From the NCBI GenBank assembly GCA_000004985.1, contig GG738896.1: DNA of 64,000 bases; one strand, 5' to 3'. Positions 1,231 through 48,993 of this stretch are shown one piece after another. This stretch comes from Naegleria gruberi (lineage: Eukaryota). The stretch's first letter is position 1; every line of letters starts with the position of its first letter. The translations under genes were made by a program, and so were the position numbers. A model generated the notes under the pieces. The model was given only the letters and a program-made list of their open reading frames with translations. It did not search any database and was not told where the DNA came from.

Positions 1231-3273
1231 TCAATACGAATTAATATCAATGTTTATTGCAAGATTTTCATCTTGTTGTGAATTGGAATGTAGGCAGAGT
1301 GATATTTCTCTCATTCTCTCATTGAATTTTTCAATAAATTGCTCCTTATCTATTGCTTTAGTGAAATAGACTGAATTATTCGAGTTATTATTGTGCTCTC
1401 CATAAAATTCATCGACGAGAGGATTTACTTTACATGCCCTTTCTAAAAATGATGGTCTGTTATTATTCCAACGATTTTTCCTATAGAGGAAATGTGTAAA
1501 TCTTGTGTATAATTGAAAATTCTCTTTCTTTTCCAGAATTTTCAGACAAGTTTCCTCATCCAAATCAGAACAATCATTAAATGCCAGGTAAGCAGATGGA
1601 TTTTTGAATAGATATATTTTCTTAATTTCACGTGGAATCGAGTTGCAATAAAGGTAGAGATTGTGTTTCGTAACACATTCTTCTAGAAATTCTAGGTCAG
1701 CAAAGATTGGATGTGTTGATAAGTCACTGATCAAAAATAAACACTTTGGGGATACCTTGATCAAATCACAATCTAATTTCAAAGTTTCACTAGCAAATGA
1801 AAATGATTGAAAATCCTGCTCAACCGCTTTCATCACTACTTCCTTGTCGTTCCAAAAATGTCTAAGGTATTGTAGTGAGCTACCAAATTTCCCAACACAT
1901 CTCAATGCAAAATTCTTATTTTGCTTAATCTCATGAGATGAATGAATAATCAAGTGAAATAGCCCTCCTGGAGTGACGCAATAATCAATCAGTAATGTTA
2001 CTTGTTCTAAGTTTGATCTTATTTCTATGGAAGCATATCTAAAGAGTTGAGGATTCAACCTCATGCATCCCTTAATCATTTCAAAATCATTTTGACAGCT
2101 TTCATCGAAATATTTAGATGGTTTTTTCAGTTTGGACATCATTTCTCTAATTAAATTTCTGTCTGTTGAATAGAGTCTTAATGCCTCTTCTATTGATTCA
2201 TTTGGGGCTAACAGCATTACATCCTTGTCCAGTCTGTATTCAGAATCTAAGGGAATCAATAAATAGTTTTTTGGATTATAGTTGATTAAACTAATTACAA
2301 AATCTTTAGATGGAATATCAAATTTGATATTCTCTTCTAGCAATCTTGAATAAAAATACATGTCACTCCTCAAATTAGATCCAATATATTGGAGAGTATC
2401 TGTAGATTTCTTAACAGCCTCAAGTGCCCAAACAGACATATTCCTCAAATTTTCCGTTGCAAATTGATATGCATTTACATTATTAGAAAGGGCTATTTCT
2501 ACAAAGGACCATTCGTTTCTTAATTTCCCTGAAGCAAATCTCAAATTCATTCCATCAAACTCAATAAATTCTTTCATAAATTCTTGGTTTCCTCTCAATG
2601 AATAACTAGCCCTAGATAAATCCACCTGTTCATATTGATTTGCATTAATCAAACAACCATACATTTCCATAAAATCCTCATCGTTAAGAATAATATCCTT
2701 TGTTCGTTCTTCCTCCAATCTGTCATATCTTTCCAATACTATAGCTCCATATTTTGATGAGAGAATTTCACGCTTTTCACTCTCATCCAAATTCTCAAAA
2801 TTATCAAGGAATTTTCTCGATACTTTCTCCATCAATTCAATTTCCTTTGTAAAAGAAATTGCTGAAAGTTTCGCAAACAGAGTAAAATTATTTTCCACAA
2901 TTTTGTAAATTAATTCTTCATCCTTCACATTCAAAGGATAGATTCTAAATTTTTGCAACATTCTTTTTGCAAATTCTACATCATTGGCAGCCACTATCGG
3001 ATACGGATTGATAAAGTTCAAACCAAGGTGACTCGTAATTATTTCATAAATTCTCGCATCACAAATAAATTCAATCGGAGTGAGTTTACTAATTGGAGCA
3101 TAATTTCTCATGAATTGCAATTGATCTTGGAGAGAACTTTCATAGGTGGCTGCTCCTTTTTGTTGATTGAAAAACCTTCTTGTGAGCAAGGTGTGAAAAT
3201 AATTATTGGGCTCAAAATCTAACACAGTAAAAACAATCGACATTTTTTTTGATATTGAAATTAATTTATTCAT
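1231..3273 (-). CDS. protein with interspersed 25-residue repeats (DUF4116-like; consensus L-x-[FY]-A-S-x-x-L-[KR]-x-D-x-E-V-V-x-x-A-V)
   Basis: 680-aa ORF. It carries repeat units such as LRFASGKLRNEWSFVEIALSNNVNA / YQFATENLRNMSVWALEAVKKSTDT / LQYIGSNLRSD and LQYLRHFWNDKEVVMKAVEQD. This is the same repeat family as the 42446..44341 ORF. Confidence 0.55.
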   Translation of the reverse strand: MNKLISISKKMSIVFTVLDFEPNNYFHTLLTRRFFNQQKGAATYESSLQDQLQFMRNYAPISKLTPIEFICDARIYEIITSHLGLNFINPYPIVAANDVEFAKRMLQKFRIYPLNVKDEELIYKIVENNFTLFAKLSAISFTKEIELMEKVSRKFLDNFENLDESEKREILSSKYGAIVLERYDRLEEERTKDIILNDEDFMEMYGCLINANQYEQVDLSRASYSLRGNQEFMKEFIEFDGMNLRFASGKLRNEWSFVEIALSNNVNAYQFATENLRNMSVWALEAVKKSTDTLQYIGSNLRSDMYFYSRLLEENIKFDIPSKDFVISLINYNPKNYLLIPLDSEYRLDKDVMLLAPNESIEEALRLYSTDRNLIREMMSKLKKPSKYFDESCQNDFEMIKGCMRLNPQLFRYASIEIRSNLEQVTLLIDYCVTPGGLFHLIIHSSHEIKQNKNFALRCVGKFGSSLQYLRHFWNDKEVVMKAVEQDFQSFSFASETLKLDCDLIKVSPKCLFLISDLSTHPIFADLEFLEECVTKHNLYLYCNSIPREIKKIYLFKNPSAYLAFNDCSDLDEETCLKILEKKENFQLYTRFTHFLYRKNRWNNNRPSFLERACKVNPLVDEFYGEHNNNSNNSVYFTKAIDKEQFIEKFNERMREISLCLHSNSQQDENLAINIDINSY

Positions 3274-5827: not shown

Positions 5828-8800
5828 TTAGGCCTTAGTAGCACATTTTGTTCCTTTCCATCCCTCATTACACGAACACTTTCCATCAGTAATGCAAATT
5901 CCATGTTTCGAACAAACCAATGGATTCGAAGCTCCATAACCAAAACAAACGAATTCTGTCGTTTCACATTCATTTCCAATTCTTCCTAGAGGACAAGCAC
6001 ATGTATCTGGACTAGTACAATTACCAACTCCACTACAAACTAATCCACTTACAATTTTTCCATAACAAATTGGTAAGGAACATTGAGTAGCTCCATAACC
6101 AGAGTTACATAGACAAGTATCAGGAGATATGCATTGACCTCGATTGGTACAATTCAGGGAACAGATTGGAGTGTTACAAGTTTCACCAATCCATCCTTGG
6201 TTGCATTGACATGTGAAAGGAGCTGTACAGTTGCCATTACCATTGCAAGATTGAGCACAGAATGGTGGTTCGTAAATTCGTTGATGGAGAGCATCAATAT
6301 CTGGATCAGAAACTGAATCACCACAAACAGATTGAAAACCTGAAATGTCAGAAGGTAAAATTGGACTTGATGTCAAGTTGGCATCTGTCATTTGGGCATA
6401 TGATTCAGTAATGAAACGAACATCATCCATAATAAACTCTCTATAATCCAATGTGATGTCATCAACTGGTTTTTGCATAAAGGTTACTCTTTGAATTGAG
6501 TTCAAACCTGTTTGATTTGTGAAAGGAATGTCACTAACTGGAATTCTGACACGAGTTACTCTTGTGTGATCAATCTTGAAATGTTGAATATACTTTGGAT
6601 CAATGTAAATTGCTGGAATATCAGTGAATGCAGTATTCTTAATTTCAGAAAAGAAAATATTCAAATTTAATTGACCTTCAGAAATGGATTGGATAAAGAA
6701 TTCGAAATATCTAAATTTAGAAAGGTCAATTAATTGAACAGGGCCTCCTTTAGTATAACTTTTAGTAATCTGAACTTTACCCATTCCCATTCCAAATCTA
6801 ATACTTGTACTTCCACAAATTGCTGCGGTTGAGTAATCTTTCTGAGCTAGTGGAACATCTTGTTTGGCTACAGTTTGTAAAACCCATCCAGTTTGAGTTG
6901 AGATATCAGTCGATTCACTGTAGAACTTGAACATGTCATCAGAAGAAATAGCTCCACATGGTTGACTGGCAGAAATTGAAATAGGAAGTGAACATCTTGG
7001 TGTACCAAATTGAGTAATACCATTGTTACAAAATAATTGGGCTCTCAAATGACCATTTGGATTAGTACTTGTTCTCAACAAGACGAAAACTTCTCCCTTC
7101 AAAAGTGAGATAATTTCATCATATGAAAAATCCATTGAAAATCTTGAAACTGAATAAGGACTTGGATAAATTGATGGTTCTTGTAAAAATCTGACAATTT
7201 CACCAATTTTACCAATTCCAACTTGAATTTGAGTTGCTAAATGAGATAGATCATGATAAACTGTAAAATCAACTGTTCTCTTATTTGCTAATAAGCCAGC
7301 AAGAACTTTACCGTTTCCTCCAGCATTGATCATGCTTGAGCTTACTTGGCAAGGTTGTAAAATTCCAGAGAATCTTTCTTCAAGAGTTACCTTTTTGATT
7401 CTATCAATGCTTGCGGTTGGGAAATCCCAATTATAGACTTGACAATTATTATTTGGACATGTGGCAGTGATTGAAAACTTGGTGGAATAACCAGTATATA
7501 GAGAATATTCATCATAATATTCAGCAAAGGCAGTTCTTCCACCAGTGTTCTTAAAATGCAAGAATAAATGTTCAGTTTGATTTTCATAGAAATAAGAATT
7601 TGGGTTGACCATTAAATCGTCAATAGAATTGACACGAGGCAATGCTCTCTGACTCATTGATGCTGTTTCATATCTGATATCGAGAACGGCAGTTCTTGGA
7701 TATTGAACAGCTAATACAATCCAATCATTATTTGCAATCGATCTCAAATAATATTGCAAGTCATTTGGAGTTCCAATATTTAAGGCCCATCTCAATACAT
7801 AAACATTCTTCAAAACTAAATTAGAATCCATCCAGAAACCTCTTGTTCCCATATTCCATCCATGTACTTGATCATATTTACCAGGATTAGAAGTATCGTG
7901 AATGAAAAGTCTTGGCATTTTAACAGTCAACTTGTTAAGGTTGGGATCACTTCCAAGAGGTGAACTAGTTGAGAAACCTGCATAATTGACAAGAGTTAAA
8001 GCACCGTAACCTTCTTTAAAGACAGGACAATTATAACTATTCCAATCTGGTTGAGCATTACAACCTGGAACAGTCAAGAAAGAATTATTAGAAACTGACC
8101 ATCCCCCTCCGGTGAATCCTGTCTTACTTCCATCAGTATCCAAAACAGTCATACCTCTATTACCATCTGTAGGTGCTTCCAAGTAGAATGCACTGTTTGA
8201 ATTTACAAAAGTCAAATTTCTCAATCTTCCTCCAGTTTCGTATTTGAAATTAGCATTTGACAAGTTTGTAATAGCTCCTGCCTTTCTATACGAATTGGAC
8301 TTGTAATTTCTAAATACGGTATTTCTTACGTAGGAAGGTCCTCCATTATCATAAAACTCATATGCCTTAAACTCCTCAGTGTTAGAGAAGAAACCAGGAT
8401 AGGAACGTGAAACATCAATGCCAGCTCTGTAAGTCTCGCCTACATTATCACTTTCCGCCTCAAATACTGAATCTTCCACAACACTTGGTTCACCAGCGAC
8501 ATCAATACCAATTCTAGAGTCACCAACAAACATATTTCTCAAAGTAATTGTGTCTGCTCTCAACCACAAAGCCCACTTTCTAATTTTGAAAGCAACAAAG
8601 TTTTCAATAATGCTTTCAACGATGGGTTTACTTTTTGAGCCACGAACTGGATAAGGAGGTTCTACAGGAACCCAGGTGTCATTTTCAGGAAATCCATTGA
8701 CATCTACAAAGTCATCAATGTGAAGACCGACATGATTAGCAGAGTGAACAACGTTATTCTTGAATGAACCAAGTGGAAGCATTCTAGGTCTAATCAATGT

Positions 8801-10263
8801 GGTATTGGCATATTTATCTTGAACTAGACCGATAGCATACTCTGGAAGTGAAAACCAATAGCCAAATTTACCACCAATAGCTCTGTTTCCCTCAAAATAA
8901 TTCATTGCCTTTTGTTGTGTAAGAATTGTGTAAAATTAAGGAATTACTTACATTGGTAATCCAGAAAACTGATACATCGTTATCTGTAGGTATTATTTGA
9001 AGCGGGTCTGAATCGATAATTGGTAAAACTTTAGCTCCCAAATTATTTTTGAACAAGTTGTACATTTCTGATCCATTTTCCAAGAAAAAGGCATGTCCAT
9101 TGATATTATAACAAACATTATTCTCAATTTGAATATAATTTGAATCATGAACAGTGATACATCTTTGATAAGAATTATAAATACTGTTATCCTTTAGAAT
9201 AAAAGGTTTGACAGTAGAGTTCAATGCCTTATCTCCTAATAAGTGAAAGTGAATTGAATAACGTCCCATTAAACCCTTTAAAATATAATTGTTAATCATT
9301 ATAATTCAATAGAATAAACTCACCTTTTGTCCCATTCGTCTCAATTCCACACCAACCATTTCGAATTGTTCAACAAGACGAATGATAACATGACCACCAA
9401 ATGAAGAAGAAGCACTGGATACATCCCCTTCAAACACAATATTCCTATTGAGTTTGGCAACTTCTCCTCTTGTAACTCCACTTGCATAGTGAGTGAACAA
9501 GAGTGTTTGGTTGACTATAAAAGTAGTCGAGTTAATAATTGAAACAATGGTTCTTTCCTCACTCTGATCAGGAAATGGAACACCAACTCGCCAAGTTGGA
9601 AGGGTGACTTTAGTTTTATCTAGAAGTTCTCCGTAATCTGTCGAGGTCAATAAGATGGAATCGCCAACTTTCCAATTGGTTGGAGAACGAGTCTTGATAA
9701 TGGTTGTTCCTTTGACGGCACTTTCAGCCAATTCTACCCAAGATAAACCATCAACAGAACCAACGATTTGAATGAAAGAACCTGAACAAGATGTAAAATT
9801 CATTCAAATGTCAAAACTTACCTGACATGGCAGCAAGACCTTTGGCTCCACCACTACTTCCATCAAATGGATCAATTCCAATAATATTGGAAGCAGTTCT
9901 ATTTCCATAGAAAGTAACCACAATTTTACCAGTAATTGGACAACTAGAGCTGCCAGCAATCAATTTACCTCCCTTGTCAACTCTAATAAATTGGAGAGTC
10001 AAATTTAAATTGACATTGTTAAATATCAAGCTTGCATTTTGTTGGACAATAATTCCATACAACAAAACACCAGGTGACTTATCCAAAAGCGTATTTTGTG
10101 AAATGGTAATGGTAGAATTGACCTTGTTCCAATCAGCAATCGAAGAAAACATTTTCAAGCCAGATTGTTGATGTGGACATTGACCAACTACCATCTTTAC
10201 ATTTCCAGCTACTAAAAACAAGATAGTTATTAGTAGAATAGTTTGTAAGAAACGGTTTAACAT
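5828..10263 (-). CDS. secreted G8-domain / right-handed beta-helix (PbH1) protein with C-terminal EGF-like repeats (CEMIP/TMEM2-like); four exons
   Basis: Exons on the minus strand are approximately 10263..9822, 9781..9324, 9275..8952 and 8908..5828. They are joined by GTAAGT/GTGAGT...AG mini-introns of 40, 48 and 43 nt at approximately 9782..9821, 9276..9323 and 8909..8951. Exon lengths sum to a multiple of 3, about 1434 aa. There is an N-terminal signal peptide (MLNRFLQTILLITILFLVAG). The G8-like signature is WKVGDSILLTSTDYGELL...RGEVAKLNRNIVFEG. PbH1-like repeats appear as SIYNSYQRCITVHDSNYIQIENNVCYNINGHAFFLENGS. The C terminus holds about 6 tenascin-type EGF repeats (CNGNGNCTAPFTCQCNQGWIGETC...). 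Confidence 0.7.
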
Positions 10264-11035: not shown

Positions 11036-11464
11036 TTGAATTTGAAACAAAAGAAGAACAACAATAACACAATGGTCGTCCAATACCAAACTTCCGATAA
11101 TCAATACTTAATCATTGTTGGTGAAAACGCCAAGGAAAACGACAAAATTCGTCAAGAAGCCTCTCAAAATGATTTGTGGTTTCACTTGGAAGATGTATCA
11201 TCACCACACGTAATTTTGAAACCAAATAATAGTTCATCATCCTCATCGTCATTTCCTGCCCAGGCTATTTATTATGCCGGCGTGTTGTGTAAAGCCTACA
11301 GTAAACAAAAGGCCACACAAACTTCATCCGTTATTTATGCACCAAGAAAATCAGTCAAAACTGTAAAGGAAATTGACGGGAGAGTTGAAGTGAAAGGACA
11401 TGTGGAGAAGATGAAGGTTTATCGGGATGATACTATCAAGGAAACATTGAAGAAAGTTGTTTAA
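11036..11464 (+). CDS. CCDC25-like protein (NFACT-R / DUF814-type domain)
   Basis: The ORF contains YLIIVGENAKENDKI...DLWFHLEDVSSPHVIL...AGVLCKAYS...VIYAPRKSVKT. This matches the CCDC25 pattern YMGKDKYENEDLI...DIWFHVDKLSSAHVYL...VVYTPWSNLKK. The start may be the internal Met at ~11072 (MVVQYQ). Confidence 0.6.
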   Translation: MNLKQKKNNNNTMVVQYQTSDNQYLIIVGENAKENDKIRQEASQNDLWFHLEDVSSPHVILKPNNSSSSSSSFPAQAIYYAGVLCKAYSKQKATQTSSVIYAPRKSVKTVKEIDGRVEVKGHVEKMKVYRDDTIKETLKKVV

Positions 11465-11933: not shown

Positions 11934-14900
11934 ATGCAACAACCACATTCCAGAACGTTTCTCTATTTGCTTTTCATATTAATATTGCAAGTGTGTTTGC
12001 AAGTTCAACAACATTCCACCACACTAGCTGTCAACACATGTTGGGGATATTCAGCTACTGACATTTCGAATGTATGTGGAGGTCATGGTTTCTGTCAAAG
12101 TACTGATTCTTGCTATTGTGTAGATTCAACGAGTAGTAATACTTTATATTCATCAGGAGGATCCAACACTCTCTATCAGGAAACTTCTCTATGGTCCACC
12201 AACTCTCAATTCGAATTGAAACAACAAAATGATGGTAATTTGGTAGTTTATACGAGAAGTGGAGGAGTGGTTTTCTCTTTCTCAACTTGGCAACAAACAC
12301 CTGATACTCCCTATACTTTAGTTCTTTCTGGGGATGGTACATTACAAGTTAAAAGTGGTGGAGGTGCCATTATAAAGACAATTTCAGGAGCATGTGGTGG
12401 TACAGCCCCTTACAAATTACTAGTCCAAAATGATGGTAATATAGTGCTCTATGGAGCACAGAGAGAAGTTTGTTTTGCTTCTGGAACATCTCAAGGTGGT
12501 TATTCACTTACGTATAATTGGGGTGGAGACCAGTGCAATCAATATCTTTGTTACGGGTTGACTGGTGCTAATGCATGTAATGGTCACGGCTCTTGTAATT
12601 CGAGGGATAGTTGCTCATGTAATAATGGATACAGTGGAAGTCAATGTACTGAGTACTACTGCAATAGTGTACTGTATTCTCAGATTGGTACAGTTTGTAA
12701 TGGTCATGGAACGTGTACGGCTCCAAATACTTGTCAATGTACTGGTGGATATAATGGTACTTTTTGTGCTTCATATCAATGTTATGGATTTGAATCGAAT
12801 GACCCAGGAGCATGTAGTGGATTTGGAACTTGTTCTTCACCAAATACTTGTACTAATTGTCTTGCTGGAAGATATGGATCTGAGTGCCAATATTATGATT
12901 GCGGTGGAATTAGATTTGATCAACCAAACGTATGCTCTGGAAGAGGAGAATGTGGTTCTAAAAACAATTGTACTTGTTCAGAGCCATACTTTGGAGATAA
13001 TTGTGAAAATTTTATGTGTAATGGAATCATTAACAATTCTACGCTCGTTTGTTCAGGCCATGGAGCATGTTCTTCACCAGAGAATTGTACTTGCCAAGAG
13101 GGTTACTTTGGAGAGAATTGTGAATTGTTTGAATGCAGTGGAATTTTGAAAAATGAATCAAATGTGTGCACTGGATTTGGTAATTGCACAGCATTTGATA
13201 GTTGTCAATGTGATGAGCAACATTATGGTAAATTCTGTGAAATTAATATTTGCAATGGAGTACTCTCAAACAGTCCAAGTGTTTGCTCTTCACATGGTCA
13301 ATGTAACTCATTCAATAATTGTACTTGTGATGAAAATTATAGTGGACAAAATTGTGAAATTTATGATTGTTATGGAGCTTCTAAAAATTCCTCCTCCGTA
13401 TGCTCTGGAAGAGGAACATGTTCAGCATATAACAATTGTAGTTGCTCTGCACCTTTTTATGGATCTGATTGTGGATTATATAATTGTTTTGGAGTAGAGC
13501 ACTTGAACGACAGTTCATGTTCATCCCATGGTTCATGTGATTCACCAAACAATTGTACATGTAAACCTGGATATTATGGAAACCGTTGTGAGTTTCATAA
13601 TTGTTATGGCACTCTCTTCAACAGCTCAGGTGTTTGTTCCACTCATGGACAATGCTTATCACCAAATAATTGTTTCTGTGAAGCAGGATTCTATGGACCA
13701 GAATGTGCAGAATATGATTGTTTTGGAGTTCATAAGAATTCTTCAAATGTTTGTTTCCAACATGGAGCTTGTTTGAGTCCAAATAATTGTTCTTGCCAGG
13801 AAGGATACTTTTCGTTTGATTGTTCTAATCATAGATGTTATGGATATTTATTTAATGATACTACAAATGTTTGTAATGGCCATGGCTCATGTCCTTATCC
13901 AAATAATTGTACATGTCAATCAGGATATTATGGATATCAGTGTGAATCTCATGAATGCTTTGGAAAGTTATTCAATATCTCGACTGTTTGTTCCACCCAT
14001 GGACAATGTTTGTCACCAAATAATTGTTTCTGTGAAGCAGGATATTATGGACCAGAATGTGCAGAATATGATTGTTTTGGAGTTCATAAGAATTCTTCAA
14101 ATGTATGCTTCCAGCACGGTACATGTTTGAGTCCTAACAATTGCTCATGCCAAGAAGGATACTACGGATTCGATTGTTCTAATCACAACTGTTTTGGAAT
14201 TCTGTTTAATGATACCATGAATGTTTGTAATGGTCATGGTTCTTGTTTTGTTCCAGATAATTGTACATGTCATCCAGGATATTATGGAAAAACCTGTGAA
14301 ATGCACAATTGTTTCAATATTTTGTTCAATGACTCAAATGTTTGCTCAGGAAAAGGTCAATGCTTATCACCAAATAACTGTTCCTGTGTTGATGGTTTTA
14401 CCAATAAGGATTGCTCAGTGAATATCAGTCCTTTCCAAATCAACCTCACAAAATACGAAGAAGTTGTTTATTTGGAGTTTGATAACAAGACTATTAGTGT
14501 TGAAATTCAATTGACAGATCGAGTATTGAGCCAAAGTCCAAATATTTCCTACACTTGGTCTTGTGCTCAGTGCGATGGACAAAATGTGGTGTATTATGTT
14601 GATTCTAATCGTTTGTTCATCAACTCTACATTAACTGATGTTACTCAAGCAGGCAATTACACTTTCATTGCAAACGCATCCATTGCTAATATTCAACCAT
14701 TCCAAAGTAGAAAATCCAACATTGAGCAATTCAAATTGGTTGTAAAGTATGATTTGAATCAGCCAACTTTGGGCTCCTTTGGCTTACCTTCTGTACTTGT
14801 ATCTAATACTCAAGATCAAACTATTTCAACTGTTATTAATAGTATCACTCTTAATCAAACAACTGTAAGATACTTTTTGGGTTGTGGTAGAAATTGCTCA

Positions 14901-17900
14901 ACTTTGGTTTCGTATTTATACGAAGTGAAGGCTGGAGTGTTTTATTACAAAAAATCAGGTTCTGTAATGGCACAATTTGAGAGCTCTAATCTATTGACCT
15001 TTTCTCCATCTGTTCCTATTCAAGCAACCATTCCATCTGATTATTTGAATGAAACAGTCTCATTCACATTTACAGTTATCAATAACAAGCAACAGAATAT
15101 CAGTTCAACTGTACAAATTCAAATTGTCTCCTCTGCAAGCCCACCAACACGACTGACAAACATAGTGGATGTTGTACCAACATATGGTATTTCAATGAGT
15201 GAAAAGTTTACAATTAAGGTTTCGGAGTGGGTTGCATCACCTGAACTGTTACCACTAAAATACGCTTTTGGATATTTTGATAAATCCAAGGCAGAAGCTG
15301 TGAGATTGACCGAATATGGTCTTAATACTACGTTTTCATCTTATCTACCTTATATTAGATCATCATCTAGCTCTAAGGCAAGAAGCATCTTGGAAGCTAC
15401 AGAGACAATTGCTTTGGTTGTCTTTGTACAAGACTCTCTTGGAAATGTCGAAACTGAAACGGCAGCTAATGTAACAGTATCTCCATTTAATGGAACTCAA
15501 GAGCAATATATTGAGGTTGTTAAATCTTTGAGCGGAGAATCACTATTGGTTGCCTCAGTGGATCAAACATTCACAAGCTTAGCATCATCATCATTGGTTT
15601 CAGCCCTCATTTCTAATATTGAAATTGATCCAAAGAATCCTTCTTCTTCTCTTTCCAGCTTGGAAACGCTCACGTCCAACAATGAAACACTCACAGCCAA
15701 TACAGTTACTCAGGTCATCAACAAATTGGATTCATTTATCTCCAATCTAACAGAGCTCTATTTAAGTGAACTTGCTCTATATGGCTATGTGAAATCCGGG
15801 ATGTCCAGTACAGACATTAGCAAAACAGTTCAAATTATTTCGAACTGTTTCTCTACTTCATATGATGCCGAAAAAACCAAATCAACAGCAAGTCTCGTCA
15901 CAGGTCTGATTTATTATGGAACTATTCCTTCTGTTGTAGACACAACATCCACAGAATTACCAACAACCTCTTACAAATCAACTTCTATTAACATTACTGT
16001 TTCTAGTTTCAACATGCCAACACCGAGTACGAATCTACAATCAGTCTCAGATACTGAAAGCAAGGTAGCAATGAATTTGACATCTATTTTGTCCAAATAT
16101 GGTGCCTATTCGACAACATGTGGTGCAACAATGATAATTTATTCAAAGAACACTAATTATGATTCCTCTGTTAGTAACATGACTATCAGTTCCTCTGTTA
16201 CTGACTTTAAATTCATGAGAAAACTGGATATTTTAGTATTGAAAAATTTGGATTCACCGCTCATACTTTCCTTCAATGCAGCCACAATCCCAAGCTCAGT
16301 GATCGCCAACTCCACAGTTACCAACAGTACGTATCATTGTAAGTATTGGGATGAGAGTCTTAAATTGTGGAGCAGCAATGGATGTTTATTGAATAGAGTT
16401 TCATCAAATTCAATTGAATGCGCTTGCTCTCATACAACTATGTTTACAACTTTCCTTGAATCCAAGACCACAGCACTTACTGTTCAACTCAAGGATCAGG
16501 TTTCGTCTTTATACTATGCCCAAATATCATTCGGTATTATTTACTTGATTGCCGCCAGTGCTATTTTGGTTGGATTGATTGTTTTGAGAAAATCGCAACC
16601 TGTTAGCTCTAGATTACTGACTCCATATGTTGGTTTGATTGCCTTAATTGTGGAATGTACATTGATTTACATAGTACAAAGATCTGTTCTCGTTGATCAA
16701 TTGAACTCTGCCAATACTCAAATGTGGGAAAATGGAGATACTGCTGCCAACATTATTGCAAACATTGTAATGATTATTGTAAACACTCTCAATTTAACTG
16801 CCATTTTCTGTTACGTCATGCAAGTTTTCAGATTCCAATTCATGAAATTGCTTTACAAGAAACTTTCTGATAATAGAACTCAAGCTCAAAGTGCAACAGT
16901 TTTGAAAGTATTGAAGTATACCACTTCTCAAATATTATTTTATTCATTGATTGGAATTTTTACTGCCCTAAATATTGCCTATTGGGTTATTTGGGTCATT
17001 CTGAGAAGAACTGGAGTTCTCACATCAACACAGTACACCTATGTTGTATCCCTTTCTTATACGGTTTGCATTTTGGCATTTGGTTTGATAATTACTGCTG
17101 TTGCAATCCTTGACATGATTCTCTCCTCAAAGAAGGAAGTTGAGCAAAAGAAAAATAGAAGAAAAGCTATTAACTTTTCACAACCAACCAGCAACTTTAG
17201 TCTTGATAATGCTGAAAATGTACATGAAAAGAAGAAAATTAATAGGAATGTATTCTTGAATGCTTTCAATTGGTTTACATCAATGGATGGACCACTCTAT
17301 TTCAGAATGGAAATGTTCATTTATATCGTGTCTTTCATTTTGCTAATATTGAATCAAGTTATTGGATTGAGTAGCTTAGCATACAGATTTGAGAGTTTGA
17401 CAATGTTTAAACTTGCTTTGACTTTTGATTCCATTTCCTTCATCTTTGAGGTACTCTATGTGGTCTCATATATTTTAGTATTTGGTGGTTATGCACTCAT
17501 TGTCGCAATCATTTACAAGGTTAGACAACGTAGAACAAGAAAGGAAGAACAAAAGAAACAAAATGAGGAAATTATGAATCAAGAACTTTACAATACTTTG
17601 GAATCTGAAGAAGGTTATGAACTCTTTGCCAACTTTTGCGAAAAAGAATTCAGTTCAGAAAATCTATTCCTCTTCTCTGATATCAAAGCAAGTCCAGATG
17701 TGGCCTCTGGTGAAAATCTAGGAGGATTACTCTTCTTTGCTGAGAGAATTTATGAAAAGTACATCAAGACAGGTGCAGAAATGGAAGTTAACATTCCATC
17801 AAAGAGTAGAACTGCTTTTGTCCAACTCTATGAAAAATGTAAGAAAGTTGAAACAAACTCTTCATTGGAATTATTAGATTCTAATTCTCTAGCTAAATCT

Positions 17901-18077
17901 GGAATTGAAACCAATATTGTAAAGGATTGTTTCGATTTAATGATGAGACAAGTAGTAATGAATTTAGGAGATACCTTTTCTAGATTTGTTTTCACACCAG
18001 AATATGTTAATTTCAAGGCGGTTAGAGACGTTCAAATGCAAATTATCGAGAAGGCCAATGTTGTCTATGATATTTAA
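11934..18077 (+). CDS. giant receptor: signal peptide, 2 bulb-type lectin motifs, ~20 EGF-like repeats, Ser/Thr-rich stalk, GPS motif, 7 TM helices, C-terminal RGS domain
   Basis: Single 2047-aa ORF with no introns. Lectin motifs QNDGNLVVY and QNDGNIVLY match QxDxNxVxY. There are about 20 Cys-rich 31-32-aa EGF units (C..G.CxSPNNCxCxxGYYGxxCE). The GPS motif is CKYWDESLKLWSSNGC...CACSHTTMFTTF. Seven hydrophobic segments follow. The RGS signature is EEGYELFANFCEKEFSSENLFLFSDIKA. Confidence 0.75.
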   Translation: MQQPHSRTFLYLLFILILQVCLQVQQHSTTLAVNTCWGYSATDISNVCGGHGFCQSTDSCYCVDSTSSNTLYSSGGSNTLYQETSLWSTNSQFELKQQNDGNLVVYTRSGGVVFSFSTWQQTPDTPYTLVLSGDGTLQVKSGGGAIIKTISGACGGTAPYKLLVQNDGNIVLYGAQREVCFASGTSQGGYSLTYNWGGDQCNQYLCYGLTGANACNGHGSCNSRDSCSCNNGYSGSQCTEYYCNSVLYSQIGTVCNGHGTCTAPNTCQCTGGYNGTFCASYQCYGFESNDPGACSGFGTCSSPNTCTNCLAGRYGSECQYYDCGGIRFDQPNVCSGRGECGSKNNCTCSEPYFGDNCENFMCNGIINNSTLVCSGHGACSSPENCTCQEGYFGENCELFECSGILKNESNVCTGFGNCTAFDSCQCDEQHYGKFCEINICNGVLSNSPSVCSSHGQCNSFNNCTCDENYSGQNCEIYDCYGASKNSSSVCSGRGTCSAYNNCSCSAPFYGSDCGLYNCFGVEHLNDSSCSSHGSCDSPNNCTCKPGYYGNRCEFHNCYGTLFNSSGVCSTHGQCLSPNNCFCEAGFYGPECAEYDCFGVHKNSSNVCFQHGACLSPNNCSCQEGYFSFDCSNHRCYGYLFNDTTNVCNGHGSCPYPNNCTCQSGYYGYQCESHECFGKLFNISTVCSTHGQCLSPNNCFCEAGYYGPECAEYDCFGVHKNSSNVCFQHGTCLSPNNCSCQEGYYGFDCSNHNCFGILFNDTMNVCNGHGSCFVPDNCTCHPGYYGKTCEMHNCFNILFNDSNVCSGKGQCLSPNNCSCVDGFTNKDCSVNISPFQINLTKYEEVVYLEFDNKTISVEIQLTDRVLSQSPNISYTWSCAQCDGQNVVYYVDSNRLFINSTLTDVTQAGNYTFIANASIANIQPFQSRKSNIEQFKLVVKYDLNQPTLGSFGLPSVLVSNTQDQTISTVINSITLNQTTVRYFLGCGRNCSTLVSYLYEVKAGVFYYKKSGSVMAQFESSNLLTFSPSVPIQATIPSDYLNETVSFTFTVINNKQQNISSTVQIQIVSSASPPTRLTNIVDVVPTYGISMSEKFTIKVSEWVASPELLPLKYAFGYFDKSKAEAVRLTEYGLNTTFSSYLPYIRSSSSSKARSILEATETIALVVFVQDSLGNVETETAANVTVSPFNGTQEQYIEVVKSLSGESLLVASVDQTFTSLASSSLVSALISNIEIDPKNPSSSLSSLETLTSNNETLTANTVTQVINKLDSFISNLTELYLSELALYGYVKSGMSSTDISKTVQIISNCFSTSYDAEKTKSTASLVTGLIYYGTIPSVVDTTSTELPTTSYKSTSINITVSSFNMPTPSTNLQSVSDTESKVAMNLTSILSKYGAYSTTCGATMIIYSKNTNYDSSVSNMTISSSVTDFKFMRKLDILVLKNLDSPLILSFNAATIPSSVIANSTVTNSTYHCKYWDESLKLWSSNGCLLNRVSSNSIECACSHTTMFTTFLESKTTALTVQLKDQVSSLYYAQISFGIIYLIAASAILVGLIVLRKSQPVSSRLLTPYVGLIALIVECTLIYIVQRSVLVDQLNSANTQMWENGDTAANIIANIVMIIVNTLNLTAIFCYVMQVFRFQFMKLLYKKLSDNRTQAQSATVLKVLKYTTSQILFYSLIGIFTALNIAYWVIWVILRRTGVLTSTQYTYVVSLSYTVCILAFGLIITAVAILDMILSSKKEVEQKKNRRKAINFSQPTSNFSLDNAENVHEKKKINRNVFLNAFNWFTSMDGPLYFRMEMFIYIVSFILLILNQVIGLSSLAYRFESLTMFKLALTFDSISFIFEVLYVVSYILVFGGYALIVAIIYKVRQRRTRKEEQKKQNEEIMNQELYNTLESEEGYELFANFCEKEFSSENLFLFSDIKASPDVASGENLGGLLFFAERIYEKYIKTGAEMEVNIPSKSRTAFVQLYEKCKKVETNSSLELLDSNSLAKSGIETNIVKDCFDLMMRQVVMNLGDTFSRFVFTPEYVNFKAVRDVQMQIIEKANVVYDI
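16338..16456 (+). other. GPS (GPCR proteolysis site) motif inside the giant receptor
   Basis: C-x2-W-x6-W-x4-C-x11-C-x-C-x-H-T-T-x-F (CKYWDESLKLWSSNGCLLNRVSSNSIECACSHTTMFTTF), immediately before the first TM helix. Confidence 0.6.
17590..18060 (+). other. RGS (regulator of G-protein signalling) domain at the C terminus of the 7TM receptor
   Basis: LYNTLESEEGYELFANFCEKEFSSENLFLFSDIKA ... FVQLYEKCKK ... matches the RGS-box hallmark (F..F...EFS.ENL.FW). Confidence 0.55.
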
Positions 18078-18099: not shown

Positions 18100-18858
18100 T
18101 TATTGATCTTTAATGCCGATGGTAACTGGTTGTAAAGTGACTGGTTGAGTAACCATACCTGGTGGATTGATAGTGCCGTAACCTTGTGGCATTGGTTGAC
18201 TAGAGGCTGATGATGGTGTAGGAATGAATTGTTGCTGTTGTGGTGGAACTAGCATTGGTTGTTGTTGATACGGTTGACCATATGGTTGTTGAATCATCAT
18301 TGGTTGTTGGGGTGGCATTGTCAAATTAGCTGTTCCAGTATAAACCAATCTCAATACGATACCAGTAGAAACATGAATCAATTTCCATTCGAAACCATTG
18401 CTAGTCAATTGAGAATTATTCAATCCTTGGAACATCTTATTCACTTCTTGTTTAACTTCAAGTTGTTTTTGCTGTTGTTGATAAATCATGTAAAACATTA
18501 CAAAAATATAAACAAATATCCACAATCCACATGTCAATACTATCAAAATAATATTGATCATCATTATCATGAAATATTTGCTTTTAATCTCACCAACAGT
18601 CCTATCAAGATAAGTATTCAAACTATTCATCGTGTCAGTAAACAATTGTCCATCAAGTGAATACGATTGTACCAAATTAGGAGCCAACTGATTATTGAAA
18701 GTTTTCATAGTGTGAGCGTAGGAATCTTCATAGACAACTTGTTGTCCTGGTTGAATGGCCAAAAGTTGTTGATCCATTGCCATGGCCATAGCAGCACGAG
18801 CTGCATAATTTCCACCATGATGATGATGGTGATGGCGATGGTGATGCATTCTTGTCAT
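18100..18858 (-). CDS. hypothetical membrane protein with His-rich N terminus, one or two TM helices and a Pro/Gln-rich tail
   Basis: 252-aa ORF starting MTRMHHHRHHHHHHGG. A hydrophobic stretch (FMIMMINIILIVLTCGLWIFVYIFVMFYMIY) is followed by a PQ-rich C terminus. Its stop codon lies 22 bp from the stop of the convergent receptor gene. Confidence 0.45.
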   Translation of the reverse strand: MTRMHHHRHHHHHHGGNYAARAAMAMAMDQQLLAIQPGQQVVYEDSYAHTMKTFNNQLAPNLVQSYSLDGQLFTDTMNSLNTYLDRTVGEIKSKYFMIMMINIILIVLTCGLWIFVYIFVMFYMIYQQQQKQLEVKQEVNKMFQGLNNSQLTSNGFEWKLIHVSTGIVLRLVYTGTANLTMPPQQPMMIQQPYGQPYQQQPMLVPPQQQQFIPTPSSASSQPMPQGYGTINPPGMVTQPVTLQPVTIGIKDQ

Positions 18859-19025: not shown

Positions 19026-20039
19026 ATGTCGCAACAAGCAACAATTGATTCATCATCATCGCCAGCAAACATGTATTTTCCGGTGCAAACAAAAATTTCA
19101 TGCCTCTTTGAAATTGAATTTTTAGAGAAGGAGAAGAAAGTTCTTGCTGTCAATAGATTATATAAGAAGGTTGTTAATTTACCAACCAATTCTGATGATA
19201 TCCGAGTGAATCCGACCATAAAAATTGATGGCACTTGTTGTCTTGTTCGTCAAGAGAAATTATTTAAACGTTATGATAGAAAATTGAATGCTTCGGGATC
19301 GAAGAAGAATAAGCAATTTCAAAAAGAAATTTCTCAAGGTACTGCCGATACTAATATTTTACAATTTGATATTTCAAAGGATTTTAAGGAGGGACCAAAA
19401 GGATGGATACCTTGTGATAGTATTGCTCATTTATTTACTGAGGAGAATAATTCAAATGTGGTTTCGTCTCAACATTTAGTGGGATGGATTCCTGTGGATT
19501 CTAATGATGCTGCAGATAAATGGCATTCTTCTGCGATAGTTTCGATTAATAATGAGCCACATGCCATAATGTTAATTCCCTATTTTGACCAAAATGATGA
19601 ACAAGCCAAGTTTTCAGTTGAATTTAGAAAGTTATCAAGTTTAGAAAATCAAACATTGGAATTAATTGGATCAAAAATTAATGGTAACGTTTATAACTTT
19701 CCTGCAAATGAAAAACAACACTTTTTAGTTCCACATGGATGGGCTTCCTATTCTTGGAAAGCAAGTAATGCATTTTTGGAGAATGTTAAAGAGCTCACCG
19801 TGGAAAAGCTTAAATCTTGGTTCGAAGATGAATCCAATATCATGAGTAAAAGTGAAGGTATTGTATTTCACATAATGTACAAAACAGAGGAAGGTAAGGA
19901 TAAGGAAATGCTGATCAAAATACACAGACACCACCTTAATTTGGATTGGCCTTTGAAGGGCTCTGCCATTCCACAATTTCAATATCAGTTGCAATGGATA
20001 GAAGAAGTTTTGAGACTCAAGAGTGAAAATAAACTCTAA
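19026..20039 (+). CDS. RLIG1 (C12orf29)-type ATP-dependent RNA ligase homolog
   Basis: 337-aa ORF. It carries the KxDG nucleotidyltransferase motif KIDGTCCLV and further blocks GWIPCDSI, VGWIPVD, KWHSS, QTLELIGSKINGNVY, HFLVPHGW, SWFEDE, EGIVFHI and LIKIHRHHLNLDWP. These match my recollection of human C12orf29, which has EKVDGTCCYV, GWVPVE, LEQTLELIGTNINGNPYG, EGIVWHC and LIKVHRHHLGLCWP. This comparison is from memory, not a search. Confidence 0.7.
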   Translation: MSQQATIDSSSSPANMYFPVQTKISCLFEIEFLEKEKKVLAVNRLYKKVVNLPTNSDDIRVNPTIKIDGTCCLVRQEKLFKRYDRKLNASGSKKNKQFQKEISQGTADTNILQFDISKDFKEGPKGWIPCDSIAHLFTEENNSNVVSSQHLVGWIPVDSNDAADKWHSSAIVSINNEPHAIMLIPYFDQNDEQAKFSVEFRKLSSLENQTLELIGSKINGNVYNFPANEKQHFLVPHGWASYSWKASNAFLENVKELTVEKLKSWFEDESNIMSKSEGIVFHIMYKTEEGKDKEMLIKIHRHHLNLDWPLKGSAIPQFQYQLQWIEEVLRLKSENKL

Positions 20040-20185: not shown

Positions 20186-21844
20186 TTACTCGGGATAATC
20201 TTTAACAAGATTTTTCCATGTAGGACCGAATCTTTTTTGGGCCAATTTCTTGTTCCATTCCTTCTCCAGTCTCTTTCCTTCTGATCTTGGTGTGTTTAAA
20301 AGCACAAGTTCGCAAACATCTTCATTACACATCTCGTCTATTGACATACCATTCAAAGACTTGAAAATGGCTGTTAACAGTCTCTGATCATCACAATAAG
20401 GTCCAAATTTCATAATAAGATTAACAAGAGCATTGGTTGACACTCCCCTCATTTTTTCTCCTTTAACAATTCCTGCATTGGATGAAGAAGGATCTGAAGG
20501 AGGGTGATTAGTTTCGACTGGAACAGTACTGGCACTAGGGCCATTGGATGCCTCAGGAACACTCTGTTGATGACTTGTACTATTAAGATCAATTGGTGGT
20601 ACAGAACTAATTGGAAACTCGATAATAGGTTGTTCTTGAATTTGATGTTGTAGAGATTGAATTGGTGGAGGAAGAATTTGATCATTGGTTGGATGTGGAA
20701 TCATATTGTGTAAATGTTGAGGGTGTTGAGGGTGTTGAGGCATTGATGGAGGCATTTGGATAGTGTGTTGGATCATTTGGGAATGTTGGATTGCAAAATC
20801 ATTGAAAGATGGTCCAACAGTGGAAGCTGAAGCTCCAAATTGTTGGAATGGATAACTGAGTGCTCTGAAGTGATCTGGTGGAGGTAGTGAATGAGGATGA
20901 GCACCTATTGGAATTGGTTGATTTTGCATGTGCAAAGCATGTTGTAGTGATGCACTTGGTGGAGTTAATTTTGTTTTGGATGGATGGCTGTGACGTTTCT
21001 TCTTTTTCATTCTTTCAACAAACTTTACAATCTTCTTTGAATCACTTATGAAAGGTTGTGTCTTGTTTGATTTTTTAACCTTTTTTGGTGGTGGTGTTTG
21101 AGAAGATACCTCGGTTCTCAATGTAAGAACTGAATCCATTTCCAAATCAGAAACTTCTTCATCATCATCAGAAGATGAATAATAAAGTGAAGGAGTTGGT
21201 GCACTTCCTGTTAATTTTCTCTTTCGTTGTGTTTTGACTGGTGTGAGTGTGATTTGGCTAACTTCATCAGAGTCGCTGTCACTGTTCTGCTCACTTGCTC
21301 TTCCATTATTTGGTGATGGATTAGTAAAGCAAGGAGGTGGTTGACTACCAAGAAAAACCACATCATCATCCGAGTCATCAAAAACATCAGAATTATTTCC
21401 TTCTTCTTGTTGAACGGGTGTCAAGGCTTCCTCCTCTTGTACTACTGTTGTTCTTTTTGGTGTTTGGAATGATGGTGATTTACCAAAGGTAATAATGGGA
21501 CTAATTTCTTCTTCCTGTTGACTGTCGGGTACTATTGAATTATTAATTGTTTGTTGCTGTGTTATTAATTGATTATTATTATTTGTTGGTTGGCTTTTAC
21601 CATTTGCTAATTGATTATTATTATTATTGTTGGAAGGTTTGTTATTATTTCCTACTGATGGCGATTTTGAATTATTTTGTTGTTGATGGTTAGTTGTTGA
21701 TAAAGATGAGGATGAGCCATTATTATTATTAGTAGAAGCACCACGAGGTTTTGGTGGAGAGTTGGAGACGAGATTCGGAACAGTAAACAAATCACCAAGA
21801 CTCGATAGGGAATGTGAGACTGACATTCTTGTGCTGTAAAGCAA
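20186..21844 (-). CDS. Asn/Gln/Pro/His-rich low-complexity protein with a short conserved-looking C-terminal globular segment
   Basis: 552-aa ORF with poly-N/poly-Q tracts and acidic/Ser tracts. The C-terminal ~90 aa (ALVNLIMKFGPYCDDQRLLTAIFKSLNGMSIDEMCNEDVCELVLL...) is not low-complexity. No domain recognised. Confidence 0.45.
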   Translation of the reverse strand: MLYSTRMSVSHSLSSLGDLFTVPNLVSNSPPKPRGASTNNNNGSSSSLSTTNHQQQNNSKSPSVGNNNKPSNNNNNNQLANGKSQPTNNNNQLITQQQTINNSIVPDSQQEEEISPIITFGKSPSFQTPKRTTVVQEEEALTPVQQEEGNNSDVFDDSDDDVVFLGSQPPPCFTNPSPNNGRASEQNSDSDSDEVSQITLTPVKTQRKRKLTGSAPTPSLYYSSSDDDEEVSDLEMDSVLTLRTEVSSQTPPPKKVKKSNKTQPFISDSKKIVKFVERMKKKKRHSHPSKTKLTPPSASLQHALHMQNQPIPIGAHPHSLPPPDHFRALSYPFQQFGASASTVGPSFNDFAIQHSQMIQHTIQMPPSMPQHPQHPQHLHNMIPHPTNDQILPPPIQSLQHQIQEQPIIEFPISSVPPIDLNSTSHQQSVPEASNGPSASTVPVETNHPPSDPSSSNAGIVKGEKMRGVSTNALVNLIMKFGPYCDDQRLLTAIFKSLNGMSIDEMCNEDVCELVLLNTPRSEGKRLEKEWNKKLAQKRFGPTWKNLVKDYPE

Positions 21845-31352: not shown

Positions 31353-31426
31353 GCAGCGATAGATCAGTTGGTTAGATCGTAAGCCTAACACGCTTAAGGT
31401 CGCGGGTTCAAGCCCCGCTCACTGTA
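31353..31426 (+). tRNA. tRNA-Val (anticodon AAC)
   Basis: Cloverleaf: acceptor GCAGCGA/TCACTGT (G1:U72 wobble plus one A:C mismatch), D-arm GATC-AGTTGGTTA-GATC, anticodon arm TAAGC-CTAACAC-GCTTA, variable AGGTC, T-arm GCGGG-TTCAAGC-CCCGC. It is followed by the T-runs CTTTTGCTTTTG. Confidence 0.7.
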
Positions 31427-41433: not shown

Positions 41434-41594
41434 ATTTTTGACTTGATTTAGTTCTTAATTGGATCACATGGTGGTGCTTGTTCGAAGGATTACTTTGTAA
41501 CTTTCTTCAAATAAATTTGCTAATATGGAATTTATGCGAAGGAAGAAAATGTATTCTCATCAAAGAACAATTCACAATCACTAACAACATGAAT

Positions 41595-41665
41595 GCGTCG
41601 ATGGTTTAGTGGTAGAATACGGCGTTGCCATCGCCGTGACCCGGGTTCAATTCCCGGTCGACGCA
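41595..41665 (+). tRNA. tRNA-Gly (anticodon GCC)
   Basis: Perfect 7-bp acceptor stem GCGTCGA/TCGACGC, D-arm GTTT-AGTGGTA-GAAT, anticodon arm CGGCG-TTGCCAT-CGCCG, T-arm CCGGG-TTCAATT-CCCGG. It resembles the usual eukaryotic tRNA-Gly-GCC framework and is followed by TTTTTT at 41674. Confidence 0.85.
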
Positions 41666-41673
41666 TGAATTAT

Positions 41674-47600: not shown

Positions 47601-48629
47601 TGAAGCATCAGCAATATATAATTTTTTTCCATAAATGGCTAAACTTGTAATTCCATGAAAAGTTGCATTTAATGCATTTCCTCCATCTCCACTAAATCCT
47701 GGAGTAATTCCTGCATTATTGGCAATAACAGTTCGTACACCATTTGAAAATTTAACAATTTGATCGTAAGTTGCTTCTGCCACATACAAATCTCCATTCG
47801 AATCAAATACGATTCCTTTAGGTCCAAAAGACGAAACATAGGTATAAACACTGCCATTATTTGCAATGTACTTGATTGCATTATTGTCAAAATCAGAGAA
47901 ATACATTTCACCACTCACAGGATTGAAGACAATCGCCCAAACTTCACCAACATTCGAATATAAAGCCAAAGATCCCTCAGCACTGTTTCCCTTCACACCA
48001 CTACCAACAATATTGTAAATGATTCCATTGACAACCTTTCTAATTCTATAATTGTAGGTATCACAAATAAAAACATCACCATTCGAAACTGGAACGACAC
48101 ATCTTGGTTGATTCAATGAAACAGATAATGGAGAAACACCAGAAGATGAAGAGTCGAATCCACCACCTGCGAATGTAACCATGTTGTAATTGTTGATGGT
48201 AGAATTAAAATAAACCTTTCGAATTCGAGCATATTCAGCAATATACAGTTCTCCATTCGAATTCAGAGCAACACTACTCGGTGTCAACAATGTATCATTA
48301 GCGAGAGTGAAATAACTGCTTTCTCCTGCTGCCAAAGTTGGTGATCCAGCAGCGAGATGTGAAAAACCATTCGAATCAACATATCTTACCTGATGATTGT
48401 ACATGTCAGAGAAATAGACATTCCCATTCAATGGTGAAACAGCAACGCCAAGTGGGAAAGTCATGCCAACTTGAGTGGCCTTGACTCCCTCTCCGTACAT
48501 TTCTCCCAACAGTGTGGTTAGTTTGAAATCGACAGGTTTAGTTTGAGAAAAACATCTGACTGTCCATGCAAAACAAGAAATCAACACAACAACCACAAAC
48601 AGATTTACAGGTTGTAAGGTTTTCATTTT
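44641..48629 (-). CDS. NHL-repeat beta-propeller(s) + EGF-like module + Ser/Thr stalk + single TM; one gene interrupted by a frameshift near 46390
   Basis: The upstream ORF (..48629 to 46383) has a signal peptide MKTLQPVNLFVVVVLISCFAWTVRC and many NHL units (GDLYICDSINHAIRKIDHETGIISTIAG...). The downstream ORF (46488 to 44641) continues the same repeat (NVIKKMDFESSIIYNIAGTG...), then has an EGF module CSGNGICQSFNNCACKVGYMGSDC, a TM helix LIGAIVGSIGGCCVLLSVLMIIIVVIALVL and a KRKR tail. The two ORFs overlap in different frames across an A4 run (GACAAAATG). A single added A would restore one continuous repeat: FIAKDKNVIKKMD. Confidence 0.55.
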
Positions 48630-48993
48630 TTTGGAATGATATGAGAATCTGAATAGATTCGTTATTGTCGTAATAAAAGATTTTTTTGGAATGATAGAGG
48701 TGATGATTGTTTCACTCGCCATTACCGGGAAAAAATATATTTAATCCCAAGGTTACACATTGTTTTACTTACAACCCTAAAATGAGAAATTATTGTCGTT
48801 TTCAATTCTTACTACCCTATCGTCAGTATGGTGAATTGAGCCAAATTGCTCAAGTATGGTAAATTGAGCCAAATTGCTCTTGGATTCGGCAGGTATTCTC
48901 CATTGTAAATTGATTCTGTTGGTAGAATCTCCACTTACAATAATTGCAATAATTGCGCTCATAATTATCAATCTCTTTAATCCATTCCAACAT

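What the first reader, a model, noticed from the sequence alone, without database searches (positions are those of the whole stretch)
19026..20039. Homolog of the recently characterised human RNA ligase RLIG1 (C12orf29) with intact KxDG adenylation motif
The ORF reproduces, block for block, the conserved motifs I recall from C12orf29. These are KIDGTCC with the catalytic Lys, the WHSS, LELIG.NINGN and EGIV.H blocks, and the terminal KIHRHHL..WP. It would be a 5'-3' RNA ligase of the nucleotidyltransferase superfamily implicated in RNA repair under oxidative stress. Its presence as a compact single-exon gene shows the family is ancient in eukaryotes. It is a tractable candidate for RNA-repair function in this organism.
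Basis: established knowledge. Interest (0 to 1): 0.5.

Follow-up and report, generated by a model that had tools for sequence, protein, structure and literature searches.

The report
Naegleria gruberi RLIG1-family RNA ligase gene
This is an intact Naegleria gruberi gene for an RLIG1-type RNA-joining enzyme with every catalytic residue in place; public databases already assign it to that family, so it is a correct but ordinary identification, and it does not by itself show that the family is ancient in eukaryotes.

The parts
19026..20039 (+). Complete single-exon CDS (337 aa plus stop) of the N. gruberi RLIG1-family RNA ligase
19221..19232 (+). Motif I, K66-I-D68-G69: predicted AMP-accepting lysine and metal-binding aspartate
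   Evidence: Invariant in alignments A1 and A2. Aligns with Yasminevirus K73/D75 and human K57/D59, whose mutation abolishes adenylylation (PMC11494293, PMC9931718).
19269..19271 (+). Motif Ia arginine R82, predicted to contact the ATP ribose 3'-OH
   Evidence: Invariant. Aligns with Yasminevirus R89 in the phmmer alignment. Role of R89 is from PMC11494293.
19656..19670 (+). Motif III, L-E212-L-I-G: glutamate contacting the ribose 2'-OH and metal
   Evidence: E212 is invariant. Aligns with Yasminevirus E174, which corresponds to human E195.
19734..19739 (+). Motif IIIa, H237-G238
   Evidence: Invariant. Aligns with Yasminevirus H195 (role).
19854..19865 (+). Motif IV, E277-G-I-V: metal-binding glutamate
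   Evidence: E277 is invariant. Aligns with Yasminevirus E240, which corresponds to human E250.
19917..19937 (+). Motif V, K298-I-H-R-H-H-L: lysine neutralising the nucleotide phosphate
   Evidence: K298 is invariant. Aligns with Yasminevirus K253, which corresponds to human K263.
19989..20036 (+). C-terminal helix (residues 322-334 within about 322-337) specific to the Naegleria/Willaertia group; it replaces the roughly 45-residue vertebrate C-terminal tail
   Evidence: The Pfam match stops at profile position 279 of 324. The model has a helix at 322-334. The W-[ILM]-[ED]-E-[VL]..LK pattern is shared only with Naegleria, Willaertia and P0003.

Best explanation
The ORF encodes the Naegleria gruberi member of the RLIG1 (C12orf29, Pfam PF17720) family. 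RLIG1 enzymes are minimal, single-domain, ATP-dependent 5'-to-3' RNA ligases. The predicted mechanism is the classic three-step ligase pathway. [quoted passage not shown] Divalent metal is held by D68, E212 and E277; the ribose is positioned by R82, E212 and H237; charge is neutralised by K298. Second, AMP is transferred to an RNA 5'-phosphate to give AppRNA. Third, an RNA 3'-OH attacks AppRNA, which seals the break and releases AMP. The likely substrates are 5'-PO4/3'-OH breaks in single-stranded or loop RNA, such as tRNA anticodon loops or rRNA, so the role would be RNA repair or maintenance. Shown here: family membership, residue conservation, fold, conservation and synteny within Naegleria, and native composition. 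Inferred: catalytic activity, from biochemistry on human, Yasminevirus and several bacterial and viral homologs. Speculative: the in vivo substrate and any link to stress.
Confidence: 0.85

Rival explanations
1. The protein uses the same chemistry but mainly as an RNA 5'-adenylyltransferase. It would leave AppN-'capped' (Ap2N) RNAs as products rather than sealing breaks, thereby marking or protecting 5'-monophosphate RNAs such as tRNAs.
For: Human RLIG1 converts 5'-p-RNA to Ap2A/Ap2G-RNA in vitro, and its knockout lowers basal Ap2N-RNA (PMC13598233). The Naegleria protein keeps every residue needed for steps 1 and 2.
Against: The same paper attributes only about 20% of cellular Ap2N-RNA to RLIG1. 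Human, viral and bacterial homologs complete ligation efficiently in vitro. AppRNA is the normal ligation intermediate. Nothing in the Naegleria sequence suggests loss of step 3.
Confidence: 0.08
2. The gene is a relatively recent horizontal acquisition by heterolobosean amoebae from a giant virus (Klosneuvirinae-like) or a bacterium or phage, not an anciently inherited eukaryotic gene. It would be a domesticated viral RNA-repair or counter-defence ligase.
For: The eukaryotic distribution is patchy. Homologs occur in a giant-virus-like contig carrying two aminoacyl-tRNA synthetases (P0185) and in Yasminevirus, which the papers read here do not describe beyond its name; that Yasminevirus infects amoebae is my own background knowledge, not a tool result. 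The bacterial and phage family is very large. The tree backbone is unresolved. Percolomonas scores equally against the Naegleria-clade, metazoan and virus-like HMMs.
Against: Base composition and GC3 match flanking genes. Orthologs in three Naegleria species and Willaertia form a 100%-supported clade, within a 90% clade containing metagenomic relatives on eukaryote-type contigs with Ran, SUN and CH-domain genes. Micro-synteny holds within Naegleria. The best IMG/VR and prokaryote matches are at most 29% identical in all but one case (one 34% outlier, L124) and are short forms. The closest relatives outside the clade by BLAST are animal RLIG1s at 31-35%. Any transfer would therefore predate the Naegleria/Willaertia split.
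Confidence: 0.3
3. The ORF is an inactive relic or a chance ORF, or it is the already characterised Naegleria ligase NgrRnl under another name.
For: None beyond the lack of experimental data. NgrRnl is of similar length (340 residues in chain 5cot_A).
Confidence: 0.01

Closest known systems
Human/vertebrate RLIG1 (C12orf29), Pfam PF17720
   Same: Same Pfam family. 31-35% identity over about 86% of the length. Same KxDG lysine and motifs Ia-V. Same single-domain architecture with no OB or C-terminal RNA-binding domain.
   Different: It lacks the roughly 45-residue vertebrate C-terminal tail, since the Pfam match ends at profile position 279 of 324. In its place is a short lineage-specific helix (322-334). 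It carries extra segments at about 240-262 and 283-295. It is from a heterolobosean amoeba, not an animal. No activity data exist.
Yasminevirus RLIG1 (PDB 9c6l/9c6m)
   Different: Sequence identity is 21-31%, depending on the alignment method. The viral protein is shorter (277 aa). It falls in a separate giant-virus-like group on the tree.
NgrRnl (Rnl5 family), the characterised nick-sealing RNA ligase of N. gruberi, PDB 5cot
   Different: A different family. There is no detectable sequence match. According to PMC9931718, NgrRnl has an N-terminal OB domain that RLIG1 lacks. N. gruberi therefore encodes at least two unrelated minimal 5'-3' RNA ligases.
T4 Rnl1/Rnl2, fungal Trl1 ligase domain, and trypanosome REL1
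   Different: There is no Pfam match to those families at E <= 1. They carry extra domains for RNA binding or end-healing.
Short bacterial and phage RLIG1-like proteins (about 190-240 aa)
   Same: Same Pfam family and motifs (P0012-P0014). Hu et al. showed that several bacterial and viral homologs ligate tRNA halves.
   Different: They are 23-29% identical. They lack the beta-hairpin insert (Naegleria residues about 171-205) and other long-form segments. They fall outside the 95%-supported long-form clade.

Membership tests
RLIG1 / C12orf29 (Pfam PF17720) | Scores above the curated Pfam gathering threshold | tested here: met
   146 bits against a cutoff of 25, E = 1.6e-42, residues 19-314 on profile positions 6-279 of 324.
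RLIG1 / C12orf29 (Pfam PF17720) | Motif I KxDG with the AMP-accepting lysine | tested here: met
   K66-I-D68-G69, invariant in A1 and A2. Aligned to Yasminevirus K73/D75.
RLIG1 / C12orf29 (Pfam PF17720) | Motifs Ia, III, IIIa, IV and V: catalytic Arg, Glu, His, Glu and Lys | tested here: met
   R82, E212, H237, E277 and K298 are all invariant. They align to Yasminevirus R89, E174, H195, E240 and K253 (roles).
RLIG1 / C12orf29 (Pfam PF17720) | Best hits in large databases are RLIG1 family members (reciprocity) | tested here: met
   All hits carry PF17720. Named hits are 'RNA ligase 1' or 'C12orf29 homolog'. Zebrafish RLIG1 (RLIG1_DANRE) aligns at E = 3e-37.
RLIG1 / C12orf29 (Pfam PF17720) | Minimal ATP-grasp/nucleotidyltransferase fold as in the Yasminevirus RLIG1 crystal structure, with no appended OB or RNA-binding domain | tested here: met
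RLIG1 / C12orf29 (Pfam PF17720) | ATP-dependent auto-adenylylation and ligation of 5'-PO4/3'-OH RNA | not testable with these tools
   This needs recombinant protein. It has been shown only for human, Yasminevirus and some bacterial and viral homologs.
Rnl5 (NgrRnl / DraRnl type) | Sequence similarity to NgrRnl and an N-terminal OB domain fused to the nucleotidyltransferase domain | tested here: not met
T4 Rnl1-like (Pfam PF09511) and Rnl2/REL1-like ligases | A match to those Pfam models | tested here: not met

The most novel reading that the evidence does not exclude
RLIG1 is not an animal (or animal-plus-virus) invention. It would be an old eukaryotic RNA-repair ligase retained in at least two distant supergroups: Discoba (Naegleria, Willaertia, Percolomonas, a euglenid) and Holozoa (choanoflagellate plus animals). 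Giant viruses would have captured it from their hosts. In Naegleria it would work beside the unrelated NgrRnl as a division of labour, with RLIG1 sealing single-strand or loop breaks and NgrRnl sealing duplex nicks. That would make Naegleria a tractable two-ligase model for eukaryotic RNA repair.
Probability: 0.25. Interest if true: 0.45.

Novelty: already known. Interest (0 to 1): 0.25.

Why it matters
RLIG1 was recognised as an RNA ligase only in 2022-2024, and its physiological substrate is still debated. A clear, catalytically intact ortholog in a culturable free-living amoeba, and in its pathogenic relative N. fowleri, offers a non-animal system for asking what the enzyme does. That amoeba already supplied the best-studied minimal RNA ligase, NgrRnl. 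My survey also finds the long-form family in heteroloboseans, a euglenid and a choanoflagellate. That is wider than the first paper's 'chordates and some molluscs' (PMC9931718). It adds named protists to the 'bacteria, viruses and many metazoans' of PMC11494293. Even so, the sequence and its family assignment are already in NCBI, UniProt and Pfam, so the finding confirms an existing automatic annotation and is not a discovery.

Tried and rejected
1. I looked for RNA-repair partners next to the gene, such as a kinase/phosphatase, cyclic phosphodiesterase or Tpt1. The flanking genes are an EGF-repeat/RGS receptor-like protein, two low-complexity proteins with no Pfam match, an F-box protein, a PLP enzyme, an RCC1 protein and an aminotransferase. 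There is no functional neighbourhood, as expected for a eukaryote.

2. I tested whether the NFACT-R (RNA-binding) gene, adjacent to RLIG1 in the N. fowleri-type contig, is a conserved partner. It lies 7.5 kb upstream in N. gruberi. It is absent next to RLIG1 in the deeper relatives L140 and L141, where the upstream gene in L141 is a Ran-type GTPase. I read this as synteny only.

3. I searched for a close viral or bacterial donor. The best IMG/VR match is 29% identical, and every viral ORF I extracted (12 of the 62 loci, chosen from the top hits and longest contigs) is a short form of 165-240 aa, apart from two ORF-extraction artefacts. The best prokaryote matches are 26-29% identical, with one 34% outlier (L124). 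I found no recent donor.

4. I searched for paralogs in the window by tblastn and found none.

5. A first NJ bootstrap with Biopython timed out. I replaced it with my own vectorised NJ and 500 bootstraps. Neither that tree nor the clade-HMM scoring resolves the deep branching.

6. The NCBIfam scan gave no hit, which is unsurprising for a prokaryote-oriented library.

7. The third word-indexed search, using a Discoba-only profile, found no further named protists.

Full report
**Observation**

The window carries an uninterrupted ORF at 19026..20039 on the + strand, 337 codons plus TAA.
- An in-frame stop lies six codons upstream of the ATG, so no longer N-terminus is possible.
- Only 146 bp separate the stop codon from the end of the next ORF (a ORF listing ORF with no Pfam match), which is on the opposite strand. 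That leaves no room for a further coding exon.
- There are two trivial slips. The sequence reads LELIGSKINGN, whereas 'TNINGN' is the vertebrate version. Three residues, not two, lie between KIHRHHL and WP.

**Source organism and existing annotation**

The translated ORF is 100% identical over its full length to a deposited Naegleria gruberi protein. NCBI labels it 'predicted protein'. UniRef already names it 'RNA ligase 1', and its precomputed Pfam domain is PF17720. The rest of the window is ordinary AT-rich eukaryotic sequence (GC 0.339). It holds EGF/teneurin-like, RGS, LRR, DUF4116, F-box, RCC1, GATA and metabolic genes and two tRNA genes.

**Family membership**

- The protein matches Pfam RLIG1 (PF17720) at E = 1.6e-42, 146 bits against a curated cutoff of 25. 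No other Pfam family matches at E <= 1.
- Against all PDB sequences, the only significant hits are the two Yasminevirus RLIG1 entries, 9c6l and 9c6m (E = 6e-12).
- Every hit of the single-sequence search and of the profile search carries PF17720. The named ones are RLIG1 or 'C12orf29 homolog'.
- Zebrafish RLIG1 aligns at 32% identity, E = 3e-37.
Neither is met.

**Catalytic residues**

In alignments spanning heteroloboseans, animals and short bacterial forms, K66, D68, G69, R82, E212, H237, E277 and K298 are invariant. I indexed the phmmer alignment to the Yasminevirus chain. These residues correspond one-to-one to K73 and D75 (motif I), R89 (Ia), E174 (III), H195 (IIIa), E240 (IV) and K253 (V). 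Hu et al. showed by structure and mutagenesis that these residues are needed for adenylylation and ligation (PMC11494293). They also correspond to human K57, D59, E195, E250 and K263 (PMC9931718).

**Structure**

- An AlphaFold2 model built on the 14-sequence alignment is confident: mean pLDDT 89.1, pTM 0.85. Only residues 1-11 are disordered.
- Foldseek against the PDB finds only Yasminevirus RLIG1 chains as significant (E = 4e-15, target TM 0.74).
- The fold is therefore that of the ligase superfamily, and the specific family is RLIG1.
- This protein is not NgrRnl, the well-known N. gruberi ligase. The two share only the 132-residue core at 19% identity. N. gruberi thus encodes two unrelated minimal 5'-3' RNA ligases.

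**Mechanism (inferred)**

By homology the protein should follow the classic three-step ligase pathway.
1. K66 forms a lysyl-AMP intermediate from ATP.
2. AMP is transferred to an RNA 5'-phosphate.
3. An RNA 3'-OH attacks the resulting AppRNA and seals the break.

This chemistry has been shown for the human enzyme, the Yasminevirus enzyme and several bacterial and viral homologs, which ligate single-stranded RNA and tRNA cut in the anticodon loop. It has not been shown for any heterolobosean protein.

The biological role is uncertain even in humans. Published proposals include 28S rRNA integrity and survival under menadione stress, tRNA maintenance, and a minor contribution to Ap2N 'capping' of RNA.

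The Naegleria protein differs from vertebrate RLIG1 in three ways.
- It lacks the roughly 45-residue C-terminal tail; the Pfam match ends at profile position 279 of 324.
- It has a lineage-specific C-terminal helix at residues 322-334.
- It carries small insertions at about 240-262 and 283-295.

Substrate preference could therefore differ.

**Is it a native gene?**

The evidence says yes.
- GC (0.338) and GC3 (0.284) match the flanking genes, whose GC3 is 0.23-0.29.
- Orthologs exist in N. fowleri (FDP41_001740) and N. lovaniensis (C9374_011757). They belong to the cluster of P0002, which is 60% identical to the N. gruberi protein. Willaertia magna has a 40%-identical ortholog.
- In the N. fowleri-type contig, a small NFACT-R gene lies 190 bp upstream of RLIG1. 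Its 67%-identical ortholog lies at 11072-11464 in this window, with two genes intercalated between it and RLIG1. The locus is therefore orthologous within the genus.

**Distribution and age**

An exhaustive profile search of 1.84 billion cluster representatives finds 2007 family members at E <= 1e-3. Most are short proteins of about 200 aa. Scans recover 76 bacterial or archaeal genome loci and 62 IMG/VR loci, nearly all at or below 29% identity (one bacterial outlier at 34%). All the viral ORFs I extracted (12 of the 62 loci) are short forms.

Among the long forms, cluster look-ups identify:
- molluscs, a tunicate, a leech, a centipede and a hemichordate
- the choanoflagellate Salpingoeca kvevrii
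- the heterolobosean Percolomonas
- the euglenid Jenningsia, from a transcriptome

One relative (P0185) lies on a densely packed contig with two aminoacyl-tRNA synthetases, HSP70 and a Bax inhibitor, which is typical of giant viruses. The nearest metagenomic relatives of the Naegleria clade (P0005, P0133) lie among eukaryote-type genes: CH domain, SUN domain and a Ran-type GTPase.

A neighbour-joining tree with 500 bootstraps gives these supports:
- 95% for a long-form clade of eukaryotes plus giant-virus-like sequences, separate from the short forms
- 90% for Naegleria, Willaertia and three metagenomic relatives together

The order of the heterolobosean, metazoan, virus-like, Percolomonas and euglenid groups is unresolved, with support below 25%.

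Clade-specific HMMs score the Naegleria protein at 174 bits (Metazoa), 149 (giant-virus-like) and 124 (short forms). Percolomonas is equidistant from all long-form groups.

The family is therefore older than the Naegleria/Willaertia split and is present in two eukaryotic supergroups. Whether that reflects ancient vertical descent with many losses or transfers involving giant viruses cannot be decided from these data.

**Literature**

- The first paper stated that orthologs were limited to chordates and a few molluscs (PMC9931718).
- The only paper in the library containing both 'Naegleria' and 'RLIG1' mentions Naegleria solely for NgrRnl.
- No one appears to have discussed or assayed the Naegleria RLIG1, although databases already assign it to the family.

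**Verdict**

The activity is a strong homology-based inference. The evolutionary claim is not supported as stated. Because the sequence and its RLIG1 assignment are already public, I rate the novelty as already known and the interest as low to moderate. The mildly interesting points are the coexistence of RLIG1 with NgrRnl in one amoeba and the Discoba/Holozoa/giant-virus distribution of the long form.

Noticed in passing
window 11072-11464 (+); L139 4423-4812: A small NFACT-R (PF05670) RNA-binding-domain gene is 67% identical to the gene lying 190 bp upstream of RLIG1 in the N. fowleri-type contig. In N. gruberi two genes are intercalated between it and RLIG1. The linkage is absent in the deeper relatives L140 and L141, so it looks like synteny and not functional coupling.
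   Followed up: yes
window 11934-18077 (+): A 2047-aa protein with an N-terminal signal-like segment, many teneurin/Jagged-type EGF repeats, a multi-pass hydrophobic region and a C-terminal RGS domain. This is a receptor-like EGF-7TM-RGS architecture. A related EGF/CEMIP-like ORF lies at 5828-8905 (-), and an NHL/teneurin-like ORF at 46383-48722 (-).
   Followed up: partly
window 18100-18858 (-) and 20186-21844 (-): The two immediate neighbours of the ligase gene are low-complexity proteins with no Pfam match. One is His- and Gln-rich with a hydrophobic segment; the other is Asn-, Gln-, Ser- and Pro-rich.
   Followed up: partly
window 31353-31426 (+) and 41594-41666 (+): Two tRNA genes, tRNA-Val(AAC) and tRNA-Gly(GCC). 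ARAGORN reports no intron in either.
   Followed up: no
window 1231-3273 (-) and 42446-44341 (-): Two proteins made of DUF4116 repeats. The second has 9 repeats and scores 420 bits.
   Followed up: no
L142 1-14785 (Logan SRR26992424 contig, 28.9 kb): A giant-virus-like contig carries an RLIG1 homolog (P0185). It sits among densely packed same-strand genes that include two aminoacyl-tRNA synthetases, HSP70, dCMP deaminase, a Bax inhibitor and a Ras-like GTPase.
   Followed up: partly
P0155 (Percolomonas sp. WS), P0149 (Jenningsia fusiforme), P0152 (Salpingoeca kvevrii): Long-form RLIG1 homologs appear in transcriptomes of a second heterolobosean lineage, a euglenid and a choanoflagellate. None of these is mentioned in the RLIG1 papers I read. 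Contamination has not been excluded for the transcriptome-only sequences.
   Followed up: partly
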